From assembly GCF_000181795.1 (NCBI RefSeq), contig NW_003526945.1, positions 597,492 to 661,491 of the forward strand: DNA of 64,000 nt, read 5' to 3'. Below are positions 56,801-59,800 of the stretch, piece after piece (the first letter of the stretch is position 1; the number at the start of each line of letters is the position of its first letter). The DNA comes from Trichinella spiralis (taxonomy: Eukaryota). A program made the position numbers and the translations under genes. The notes beneath the pieces are model-generated. The model saw nothing but the letters and a program-made list of their open reading frames with translations, searched no databases and was not told where the DNA came from.

Positions 56801-59800
56801 CAGGTAGTTTTAACTTTTCAGAAACTTTTGGTGTGAGGAAAAACAGTTAAAACAAAATATATTTTTCTAATCTTTTGGCTGTGTCTACTTGGTATATTAG
56901 GTTATTGAAATTAATGAACAAATCTTTTTCTCATTTTAATTACATTAGGTAAAAAATGAAAACATTATGTTTGAAACATTTGTACATAAATAGAACTGTA
57001 TAATGGTGAAAAAAAATAATTTTTTAGCTGTTTTAGGTTATTACTTCTGGGCATGCAAAAATTAATAATATTTTATTCACTAAATCATCCTACGTTAATA
57101 ATATTAATATGCTGCTTCCATTTGATAAAGTTCTGTAAAAACGATTTAAATTGAAAATAGTCTTAGTTCGATTCATTTGAAACAAGTCGGAGATTTAAAA
57201 TAATTGGCATAGAATTAGGAGTTTATTTGATTCAATCAACTTGTAAAAGATCAACTGCATTGTTAGCTTTAATATATATGTATTTTTTGATCTGACCATT
57301 GGCAGTCAAAAAATTTATACATATTAAATATGTTAAAGGTTTTGAAAAGTACAGCAAAGTCGACTGTTCATTGAAATAATTTATGAATAAAATGGAATAA
57401 AGTTATTTTTAAAAGAAATGAAAGAAAGAAACTAAGTTACAAGTTGTGTATAATCACGAAATTCTTTGTATGTTTATAGGTATTTCCGTGTTCATGTCCT
57501 TGTGCGTGTTTTTAGTTGTAGTATCTGAATCAATGCCGCATACATCTGATGCAGTTCCACTGATCGGTACAGAATTTCTTTACATGTTGTATTATTTTAT
57601 TTAAATACACAAAACAGCAACAATAACAATGCTATTGGCGTGATGGCTCCTTCCGATACCTGTAACTTATGAAACACAAAAATTATTAATTGACTCTGTG
57701 CTTGACGCATTGAATTAACCTCGCACCAAAAGGTTGAGATAAATCAGAGTATTTGCAAATTGTGAAAATCTTTCTCTCTCTGTGTCTCTCTGTATGTGTG
57801 CTCAACTTCAGTTCTCTGACTCTTCGTCTTTGCAAACGGTTTTCGCCTCTTATTGTACATGGTTGATATTTTTTTATAGGTCTCAATGTTCTCGTTTCAC
57901 TGGTATTCTATCTGCAAATTTTTGCTATGACTATTCCTTCTACAAGCGAAACGGTACCGCTATTAGGTAGGTGCCTGTATTTCTGCTTGCATTTGTTATT
58001 TTTGGTTGGAAAGAAAAAATACAATTTTTATTTTGAGATGCAAGGAGAGGTGATGTAATATGTGGAAGAAGTGATTGATTATTTCTTTTATTCAAATCTT
58101 TATTTACAAGTTGCATTTTTTTATTTTGGCACTGAAGCATGCATATTGGAGTGAAATTATTTTTCCTCTAACTCTAACAATGGCTTGTTGCGGAAAAGTC
58201 AGTGGGATATTTTACATTAAATGAAAAGTTTCATCTTTTCTACTGAACGTGTAAAAGAAAGGACCTTTCGATTCAATAAATTGTTGAAAAATTAATCACA
58301 TTTGTTGGTTTTCTTAAGCTGACTCATTGTTTGGTAATGGCTGATCGATTTGATCACACGTTAGTTGATATTTTTGATTTTCGTCATCACTTCATCTTAT
58401 CAGTTTGATCATTACGTTGAAATTTACATTTAAGCAGATCTTTTTTTAATGTTAAAATTGCATCACCTTGCCGCCTATTGATGATCAATCAATCAATTCA
58501 GTATCACGCGCATGATGACATAGGAAATGTTTTACAGAAGACGGAAACGATTAAACCTTTCAATAATAGTTGCTGAACAAATTAATATTTTTTATTGCAT
58601 CAGATACATAGAAAAAAAGTGTCCAGTTTTCAGTTGGTGTAGAAGATGCAGCCAGTTGCTGTGATAGATCAGTCAATCATGTTTGATTTGATTTTACAAC
58701 AAGGCAAAAGAAAAAACACTGTACTTTTGCAATTTGCATACTTTTCAAACTTGACAATCATTTTTATTGATTGGACCTTTGAACGAGAGAGCGAGTTTAT
58801 TCATTGAATGAAAAATTTTATATTTACATGTGATTTTTTTTTATTTTTACTTTTTTATTTTCAAATTTAAAACACGTATTTTTTACATACGCACATCAGT
58901 ATCACAAATGCAATCATGAAAATGTTTTGTTTTGTTTTGTTTTGCTCTCTTTTTATCTTTGCTTTGCGTAAATTGAACGTGAAATATACAAATAAATGAG
59001 AAATGTTTGTATAGATGTTGATAAAATGATCTCATTTTTGCATGAATAGCATTTCAAAGTAAAACAAGTTTTCTAATAAACTTTAGCTTTAGTTGCAATT
59101 TTAATACCGTTTTTGTCCTAGTCAAGTTGAACAATTGAAATTTCAACAAAACCAATGAAATTAGTGTAATATTTAAATTTTAATTCATTGTAAAATAAAT
59201 GTGTACCGTACAACAGTTGAACAGAATAAACAAGCATGTCGTATCTATGTTTGAGAGCACTTTAAAATTTACTTCTTGTTTTTTTTGCGTTTACAATACA
59301 AGATTTTCAAGAACATTTTATCCTTTACCAGTTGAATAAATTTTTGTTGTCTTGTTTGTGTTGTCAGTTCAAAAATTGAGGCAAATGTCAAGGTTGACAG
59401 GACATTTTCAATCTTAACATAAATGTAACTTTACATAATTATGTTACGTCGTGTTATTTTATTTTATTTTATTTTATTTTATTAAAGGTCATTTTATTTG
59501 CATGTGGACGTTTTTGAAAAAAGAAATATTATTTCGTTTTCTCTGAATTTGCATATTTCGACAACAAGTTTCGAAATAATATATGCATGCATCAATCAGA
59601 GTTACGCAATGTGGATGATTGTCTGCAAAAAAATTTTCACAACAAAGAATGCAATTGCAAAAACATGTTTATTTAATCGATTAGGAATTGCAAAAGTATG
59701 CAATTTCATCCAAAATGTTTATTGGTCAACTTTCGTCGATTGTTTGCGTCACAAAGCTCAGGGGCAAGGCTAGGAGAGGGGAGGCAGGGGGTGGGGGAGG

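What the first reader, a model, noticed from the sequence alone, without database searches (positions are those of the whole stretch)
57480..57966. The two M2 variants differ at nearly every pore-facing position, and neither has the canonical 9' leucine
Counting from the K of GEK as 0': exon A gives 6'S, 9'M, 13'V, 16'V, 17'V, 20'E; exon B gives 6'N, 9'V, 13'F, 16'Q, 17'I, 20'M. Known from vertebrate alpha7 mutagenesis: 9'L forms the gate and controls desensitisation, 13', 16' and 17' affect Ca2+ permeability and gating, and 20'E is the outer anionic ring. The -1'E is shared from the constitutive exon, so both should remain cation-type. Inference: splicing would switch conductance, Ca2+ permeability, desensitisation or open-channel-block sensitivity, or B could be a modulatory/non-conducting subunit.
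Basis: partly seen in the sequence, partly recalled or inferred. Interest (0 to 1): 0.75.

Follow-up and report, generated by a model that had tools for sequence, protein, structure and literature searches.

The report
Swappable pore exons, Trichinella ACR-19 receptor
A Trichinella worm gene for an acetylcholine-receptor subunit (acr-19) splices in one or the other of two very different exons for its pore-lining helix, which likely gives two channel forms with different gating, and the second form offers a new test of why this subunit has so far given no current when expressed.

Summary
Real. The window holds Trichinella spiralis acr-19, an alpha7-like nicotinic subunit, with two 87-nt exons for the pore helix M2 (A 57480-57566, B 57880-57966). 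The residue numbering of the finding is correct. RNA shows either-or splicing: A joints in 7 of 7 spliced runs, B joints in 6 of 7, no A-to-B or skip joint. Corrections: exon A's 9' methionine is the normal ACR-19 family state (Trichuris, Plectus, rhabditids); -1'E, 2'T and 10'S are shared; and the pore face is no more changed than the rest of the helix (6/7 vs 6/9, p=0.58). Exon B is the odd one: 6'N, 9'V, 13'F, 20'M. The architecture is known from insect alpha6 exon 8a/b/c, and this scan noted similar pairs in octopus and arthropod DNA, but 30 arthropod pairs differed at two pore positions at most, against six here. Both isoforms are in GenBank gene models; my ten paper searches found no description. 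The whipworm orthologue, apparently the A form, gave no current in oocytes; B was never tested. Function of B is inferred only. New variant of a known kind.

The parts
53802..53880 (+). acr-19 first coding exon (signal peptide)
   Evidence: joint 53880->54588 in X18, X1, X7; joined model equals the C-terminal 489 aa of P0002/P0126
54588..54727 (+). acr-19 coding exon 2 (extracellular domain)
   Evidence: joints
54890..54934 (+). acr-19 coding exon 3
   Evidence: joints
55045..55154 (+). acr-19 coding exon 4
   Evidence: joints
55852..56099 (+). acr-19 coding exon 5 (Cys-loop, loop B)
   Evidence: 100% identical to T. spiralis proteins P0002/P0003; joints
56317..56511 (+). constitutive exon: loop C (YECC), M1, GEK with -1'E and 2'T; common 5' donor for A and B
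56825..56838 (+). upstream arm of a candidate 14-bp RNA stem that would loop out exon A (suggestive only)
   Evidence: -22.1 kcal/mol, best stem of 56512-60537; 13 of 200 whole-region shuffles reach it
57480..57566 (+). alternative exon A: M2 4'-32', ACR-19 family type (6'S 9'M 13'V 16'V 17'V 20'E)
   Evidence: joints 56511->57480 and 57566->60538; 27-28 of 29 residues identical to Trichuris ACR-19
57719..57732 (+). downstream arm of the candidate stem, in the A-B intron
57880..57966 (+). alternative exon B: divergent M2 (6'N 9'V 13'F 16'Q 17'I 20'M)
   Evidence: joints 56511->57880 and 57966->60538; same peptide in T. pseudospiralis model P0122
60538..60647 (+). constitutive exon: M3; common 3' acceptor for A and B
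60700..61155 (+). last coding exon: intracellular loop, M4, stop TGA
   Evidence: joint 60647->60700

Best explanation
Trichinella acr-19 makes two mRNAs by splicing in either exon A or exon B for the pore helix, and the two subunits, identical everywhere else, likely assemble into acetylcholine-gated cation channels whose gate and ion flow differ with the exon used. Shown: gene identity, either-or splicing at comparable levels, intact 489-aa frames. Exon A is the inherited ACR-19 pore. Exon B is an old, strongly diverged tandem copy kept in frame. Inferred: because ligand-binding domain, M1, M3 and M4 are the same, A and B would co-assemble where both are made, and B would act as a tuning subunit: it removes the 20' acidic ring (predicted lower conductance, Ca2+ entry and cationic-blocker binding), puts a small 9' Val and a bulky 13' Phe at the hydrophobic gate and a polar 6' Asn below it (predicted change in opening and desensitisation). 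The shared -1'E would keep both cation-type.
For: Joints M1->A, M1->B, A->M3, B->M3 all GT..AG; A in 7 of 7 and B in 6 of 7 spliced runs, from 4 studies and 4 organism labels for B; none in the contiguous DNA-like run X12. B makes up roughly 29-49% of joint-contig depth in X1, X3, X4, X7 (a rough measure). 9 of the 10 whole codons that keep the same residue in A and B differ in DNA, so the copy is old and the kept residues (10'S, 11'L, 15'L, the M2-M3 loop Pro/Thr/Ser/Val-Pro-Leu) look selected. B peptide identical in T. spiralis and T. pseudospiralis models. B form folds as a normal subunit, mean pLDDT 87.9, M2 helix 268-290, best match human alpha7 at 2.0 A. In alpha7, 20'E forms the outer acidic ring, E258R abolished block by one blocker in an anion-type mutant background, and the blocker QX-314 binds near 6' and 9' (PMC10941285 passages). 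The vertebrate modulatory subunit beta3 carries a natural 9' Val (PMC4022547 passages).
Against: No protein or current has been shown for either form. T. muris ACR-19, by length and primer ends the A-type record P0008 (inferred; a B form would have the same length), gave no ACh current alone (n=14) and no clear change with ACR-16-like (PMC8308736). Pore-side differences are not enriched (p=0.58), so fast general divergence explains the pattern as well as selection on the pore. Run X10 (organism F) showed only A joints. The only run on record as RNA (X18) has just 1-2 reads per A/B joint. The two Trichinella proteins differ at only 3 of 489 residues, so B's identity between them is weak evidence. 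No B-type exon was found outside Trichinella. The fold model would show a helix at M2 from the alignment alone. Effects of 13', 16', 17' on Ca2+ permeability are recalled, not checked in a paper here.
Confidence: 0.6

Rival explanations
1. B is a silencing form: it assembles with A or other subunits through the shared domains but closes or blocks the pore (five 13' Phe, no 20' acid), so splicing sets the number of working receptors.
For: B's pore-side letters are rarer than those of 141 of 143 diverse nicotinic representatives, 20'M occurs in 0 of 143, and only 4 of 143 depart from consensus at 6', 9' and 13' together. Wild-type beta3 (9'V) is reported as dominant negative on alpha6 receptors (PMC4022547).
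Against: 13'F and 17'I also occur in nematode ACR-16-type M2 (P0244), and ACR-16 forms working homomers (PMC7891710 passages); B keeps the loop residues and -1'E.
Confidence: 0.15
2. A and B are obligate partners: one gene builds a heteropentamer from its two splice forms, and neither works alone.
For: Near-equal use of both exons in four runs; the A-type whipworm orthologue gave no current alone; paired obligate subunits (DES-2/DEG-3, ACR-26/27) are cited in that paper.
Against: ACR-19 records of Plectus, Acrobeloides, Mesorhabditis and Trichuris show only A-type M2; missing chaperones are a simpler reason for failure, as the authors say; whole-worm RNA cannot show that A and B share cells; X10 shows A joints only.
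Confidence: 0.1
3. Both forms work alike or B is tolerated drift: a duplicated exon under relaxed selection with little physiological effect.
For: No pore enrichment; long B branch; for insect alpha6 it is still unknown whether exon 8 variants differ in function (PMC6393475).
Against: Changes fall at 6', 9', 13', the most conserved pore positions (T/S 136, L 123, V 106 of 143); synonymous sites are saturated while key residues and the frame are kept.
Confidence: 0.12
4. Assembly artefact, allele or dead pseudo-exon.
For: Gene predictors disagree: A only, B only, A+B in tandem, or neither.
Against: DNA-like run X12 is contiguous over both exons with no difference from the window; both exons are spliced at exact GT..AG joints.
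Confidence: 0.02

Closest known systems
Insect nAChR alpha6 mutually exclusive exons 8a/8b/8c (PMC1919356, PMC2064938, PMC6393475; passages seen)
   Same: alpha7-like subunit; tandem copies of the same 29-residue M2 plus M2-M3 loop unit, used one at a time; 8c also loses the 20' glutamate.
   Different: Nematode acr-19, a separate clade (100/99). In 30 arthropod pairs from 22 genes the variants share 18-24 of 29 residues and differ at 0-2 pore positions (16', 17', 20'), here 11 of 29 and six positions including 6', 9', 13'. One unpaired phylloxera variant (P0016) does alter 6' and 13' but keeps 9'L. Insect 8c is the least used variant; B here is roughly a third to a half. B does not group with 8a, 8b or 8c.
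ACR-19 of Trichuris and other nematodes (PMC7891710, PMC8308736; passages and one section seen)
   Same: Orthologue; KRY27533, named T. spiralis ACR-19 in PMC7891710, is this gene; A-type M2 with 9'M.
   Different: The papers' text mentions no splicing of acr-19 ('splic' 0 hits in both); only one cDNA form was tested; no B-type M2 in any Trichuris or other nematode record retrieved.
Nematode avr-14 (GluCl) splice forms AVR-14A/B (PMC8841521, passages)
   Same: One nematode Cys-loop gene yields two subunits with the same N-terminus and different channel regions.
   Different: Anion channel; the whole C-terminal channel region is swapped, not a single 87-nt M2 exon.
Vertebrate accessory subunit beta3 (PMC4022547, passages)
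   Same: Natural 9' valine; modulatory or dominant-negative role is a model for B.
   Different: A separate gene and a non-alpha subunit; B keeps the full alpha-type binding domain of A.

Membership tests
nicotinic alpha subunit, ACR-19 orthologue group | Cys-loop ligand-binding domain plus four-TM channel domain | tested here: met
   PF02931 E 2e-71 and PF02932 in both forms; fold matches alpha7
nicotinic alpha subunit, ACR-19 orthologue group | vicinal cysteines YxCC in loop C | tested here: met
   YECC in the constitutive exon
nicotinic alpha subunit, ACR-19 orthologue group | cation-type GEK motif with -1' glutamate | tested here: met
   56493-56501
nicotinic alpha subunit, ACR-19 orthologue group | orthology with ACR-19 | tested here: met
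   accessions KRY27533, KFD70086, CDW53523 named ACR-19 in PMC7891710 are this gene and its cluster mates; clade of 6 rows 100/99 on a tree without the M2 exon; C. elegans ACR-19 itself was not retrieved
nicotinic alpha subunit, ACR-19 orthologue group | forms an ACh-gated channel | not testable with these tools
   T. muris orthologue gave none in oocytes
mutually exclusive tandem exons (alpha6 exon 8 type) | homologous neighbours of equal length and phase | tested here: met
   87 nt each, same phase, 40 of 87 nt and 11 of 29 residues identical
mutually exclusive tandem exons (alpha6 exon 8 type) | each copy spliced to both flanking exons; copies not joined, not both skipped | tested here: met
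   A joints 7 of 7, B joints 6 of 7, A->B 0 of 7, skip 0 of 7 spliced runs; contigs drop rare forms, and GenBank has predicted A+B models
mutually exclusive tandem exons (alpha6 exon 8 type) | common descent with arthropod exons 8a/8b/8c | tested here: inconclusive
   29-column tree: B is a long branch near ACR-16-type M2, not near 8a/b/c; A+B clade not rejected (p-AU 0.29)
mutually exclusive tandem exons (alpha6 exon 8 type) | competing intronic RNA pairings that enforce exclusion (serpent/Dscam model, PMC4691838 abstract) | tested here: inconclusive
   one stem around exon A (13 of 200 whole-region shuffles as strong); no rival stem around B
accessory nicotinic subunit (beta3 type) | 9' valine in place of leucine | tested here: met
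   exon B 57894-57896; beta3 V9'
accessory nicotinic subunit (beta3 type) | no alpha-type agonist site of its own | tested here: not met
   B keeps the same extracellular domain with YECC as A; so B may work like an accessory subunit but is not a member
accessory nicotinic subunit (beta3 type) | works only in a mixed pentamer | not testable with these tools
   needs co-expression

The most novel reading that the evidence does not exclude
One gene builds a heteromeric nicotinic receptor from its own two pore-splice forms: ACR-19A and ACR-19B must co-assemble to make a working channel in clade I parasitic nematodes, which would explain why ACR-19 has never been reconstituted and would reveal a hidden cholinergic receptor type in Trichinella and perhaps whipworms.
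Probability: 0.1. Interest if true: 0.85.

Novelty: new variant of a known kind. Interest (0 to 1): 0.55.

Why it matters
Nicotinic receptors are the main targets of cholinergic anthelmintics, and clade I worms (Trichinella, Trichuris) have only two ACR-16-group subunits according to PMC7891710. ACR-19 is an orphan: its one expression trial failed and what it needs is stated to be unknown (PMC8308736). A second, abundant isoform with a different pore gives a cheap, direct experiment on that open question. It is also a natural case of swapping the gate residues 6', 9' and 13' on one identical scaffold, further than the insect alpha6 pairs examined here go, and one more apparent origin of either-or M2 exons in animals.

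Tried and rejected
No whole genome was held, so no Trichuris or other-species genomic search for exon B was possible. Protein search with the A+B region of P0003 (7 hits of 44 candidates), the ACR-19 profile (best 120 of 2336, best 150 of 27478) and 78 metagenome loci gave no B-type M2 outside Trichinella; these collections hold few clade I nematodes and 90% clusters hide isoforms, so this is weak. The look-up of sequencing runs listed no holder on record as RNA; the splice evidence comes from the lays. The first fold (6-row alignment) had pLDDT 33 and was discarded. The first gene-model script had wrong boundaries and was redone from RNA joints. Inverted-repeat listing gave 360 mostly AT-rich pairs; the stem test against intron-by-intron shuffles (0 of 200) was chosen after seeing the stem, and the fair whole-region test gave 13 of 200. 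The M2-exon tree has only 29 columns and cannot date the duplication. A complex prediction was not run: A and B share all other interfaces and would pass by likeness to solved alpha7 pentamers. RNA editing was not seen, but coverage in X18 is too low to test it. PMC12721288 held nothing on exon 8. A loose read end at 57403 has no partner in the window.

Full report
What the gene is. The + strand at 53802-61155 carries a nicotinic receptor subunit gene. One extracellular exon is 100% identical to Trichinella spiralis proteins P0002 and P0003. P0003 is KRY27533, the accession that PMC7891710 lists as T. spiralis ACR-19 (passages). The nearest relatives are the Trichuris ACR-19 records KFD70086, CDW53523 and a 497-aa T. 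muris protein. On a tree of 34 proteins built without the M2 exon, Trichinella, two Trichuris, Plectus, Acrobeloides and Mesorhabditis sequences form one clade (100/99) beside the alpha7-like subunits (90/93, not starred). C. elegans ACR-19 was not among the hits, so the name rests on the paper's accession list. Both splice forms are 489 aa, carry PF02931 and PF02932, YECC and GEK.

The observation. Exon A (57480-57566) and exon B (57880-57966) are each 87 nt, AG..GT bounded and in one phase. The two exons share 40 of 87 nt and 11 of 29 residues. Within 5'-20', 6 of 7 pore-side and 6 of 9 other positions differ (p=0.58): the pore differs because the whole helix does.

Both exons are used, one at a time. 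Eight of the 24 listed runs were laid. X12 is contiguous over the region with no joint, as DNA should be. The other seven show GT..AG joints. A joints appear in 7 of 7, B joints in 6 of 7 (X18, X1, X3, X4, X7, and B-to-M3 only, at depth 2, in X11), an A-to-B joint in 0 of 7, a skip joint in 0 of 7. X10 shows A only. B is seen in four studies and four organism labels. Limits: only X18 is on record as RNA and it has 1-2 reads per A/B joint; the rest are contigs, which drop rare forms and whose depth is a poor expression measure; X11 is flagged as probably DNA. With that caution B is 29-49% of joint depth in X1, X3, X4 and X7. GenBank holds predicted A, B and A+B models for T. spiralis (KAL1235176/5/4) and T. 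pseudospiralis (KAL1234632/1/3); I saw no RNA support for A+B, which would be in frame (518 aa).

Which exon is odd. Exon A is the family norm: 27-28 of 29 residues match Trichuris and 18-20 match Plectus and rhabditid ACR-19, all with 9'M. So the missing 9' leucine of A is an ACR-19 trait. Exon B is the outlier. Among 143 of 150 diverse representatives whose M2 aligned without gaps (7 dropped), 6'N occurs in 4, 9'V in 8, 13'F in 13 and 20'M in 0; only 2 of 143 have a rarer pore-side set, against 16 for A. 13'F and 17'I are shared with nematode ACR-16-type M2. Nine of ten whole codons that keep the residue differ in DNA, so the duplication is old. The B peptide is identical in the T. pseudospiralis model, but the whole proteins differ at only 3 of 489 sites. 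On a 29-column exon tree B is a long branch next to ACR-16-type M2, the six A-type exons group without it (94/83), and an A+B clade is not rejected (p-AU 0.29); its origin is unresolved. The B form folds as a normal subunit (pLDDT 87.9; alpha7, 2.0 A), which is weak evidence since the alignment dictates the helix.

How exclusion might work. The A-B intron is 313 nt and A+B stays in frame, so neither crowding nor decay of the mRNA is an obvious guard (inference). A 14-bp stem, 56825-56838 with 57719-57732 (-22.1 kcal/mol; 20 bp and -27.5 with a bulge), brackets exon A and is the strongest in the 4-kb region, the geometry of the upstream pairing in the serpent model (PMC4691838, abstract and outline seen). 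But 13 of 200 whole-region shuffles reach it, several other 4-kb stretches of the window hold stems as strong, and no rival stem brackets B. It is a lead only.

How it most likely works. Shown: two full-length subunit mRNAs differing only in M2 and the M2-M3 loop. Inferred: they would co-assemble through identical domains, and B would retune the pore. In alpha7, 20'E is the outer acidic ring and 6' and 9' line the blocker site (PMC10941285, passages); effects of 13', 16' and 17' on Ca2+ entry are recalled from the older alpha7 literature and were not checked. A natural 9' valine marks the vertebrate modulatory subunit beta3 (PMC4022547, passages), though B keeps a full alpha binding site and is not such a subunit. 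Against easy testing: T. muris ACR-19 with RIC-3 never gave ACh currents (n=14) and did not shift the ACR-16-like EC50 (PMC8308736, passages and section 2.2). That clone has the length and ends of the A-type record P0008 (inferred). Whether Trichuris has an exon B could not be tested here. I put 0.6 on tuning, 0.15 on silencing, 0.12 on little effect, 0.1 on an obligate A+B channel and 0.02 on artefact.

Comparison with what is known. Insect alpha6 has mutually exclusive exons 8a/8b/8c for the same M2 unit; 8c loses the 20' glutamate and is the least used; whether the variants differ in function is stated to be unknown (PMC1919356, PMC2064938, PMC6393475; passages). Among retrieved proteins grouped by an identical downstream flank, 30 arthropod pairs from 22 groups differ at 0-2 pore positions, only at 16', 17' or 20'; the Trichinella pair differs at six. 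This sample is the top hits to my queries, misses variants of other length, and one unpaired phylloxera variant (P0016) does change 6' and 13'. In nematodes, avr-14 swaps its whole channel region by splicing (PMC8841521, passages). Earlier notes of this scan report either-or M2 exons in octopus, springtail and another arthropod (unchecked); none matched this sequence or place.

Novelty. Ten paper searches found no description of acr-19 splicing; the two whipworm papers have no hit for 'splic'. The library lacks most subscription journals, including the 2007 survey of T. spiralis Cys-loop genes that both papers cite; figures are not held and I read no supplements, and the alignment figure of PMC7891710 used the A+B tandem model KRY27533, so the second M2 may be visible there. 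Verdict: a real, RNA-supported, new variant of a known kind, with an untested function and one clear experiment to run. Interest 0.55.

Noticed in passing
window 54360-54530 (+): Run X4 joins an alternative 5' exon to 54588 (GT..AG); its last 33 nt read [11 protein letters not shown] from an ATG, a short N-terminus in place of the signal-peptide exon.
   Followed up: partly
window 57403: Contigs of X1, X3 and X4 leave the window here, just after an AG in the intron before exon A; the other part is not in the window. Possibly a cryptic acceptor or a chance overlap.
   Followed up: partly
window 57940-58827 and 58955-59783: The intron after exon B is covered by long unspliced contigs in the RNA-like runs, and X18 has a few opposite-strand reads at 58740-59253; slow splicing, retention or antisense RNA.
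   Followed up: no
window 48888-49121 (+): Calponin-repeat ORF (PF00402, E 1e-10); GenBank models P0002, P0123 and P0126 fuse this region to the start of acr-19; the 489-aa frame from 53802 matches the unfused T. pseudospiralis models in length, so the fusion looks like an annotation error.
   Followed up: partly
window 61750-62880 (+): GenBank KRY27533 (P0003) puts A and B in tandem and adds a C-terminal tail from here beyond the stop at 61155; likely mis-annotation.
   Followed up: partly
window 35606-38650 (+): Nuclear hormone receptor gene: C4 zinc finger (E 3e-17) and a weak ligand-binding-domain hit, followed by a 538-codon low-complexity frame.
   Followed up: no
window 24889-25433 (-): Caspase-domain (Peptidase_C14) exons, paracaspase-like by recall.
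   Followed up: no
window 7259-9944 (-): Papain-family cysteine protease exons.
   Followed up: no
window 969-1439 (-): Vinculin/alpha-catenin family exon.
   Followed up: no
P0016, P0041, P0013, P0116, P0399-P0402: Database isoforms point to alternative M2 exons beyond insect alpha6: phylloxera, a spider, copepods, a springtail and a barnacle, the last also with a doubled loop C/M1 unit in its models.
   Followed up: partly
L009 922-1070: A metagenome alpha7-like transcript with 6'N and 10'A in M2 but 9'L kept.
   Followed up: no
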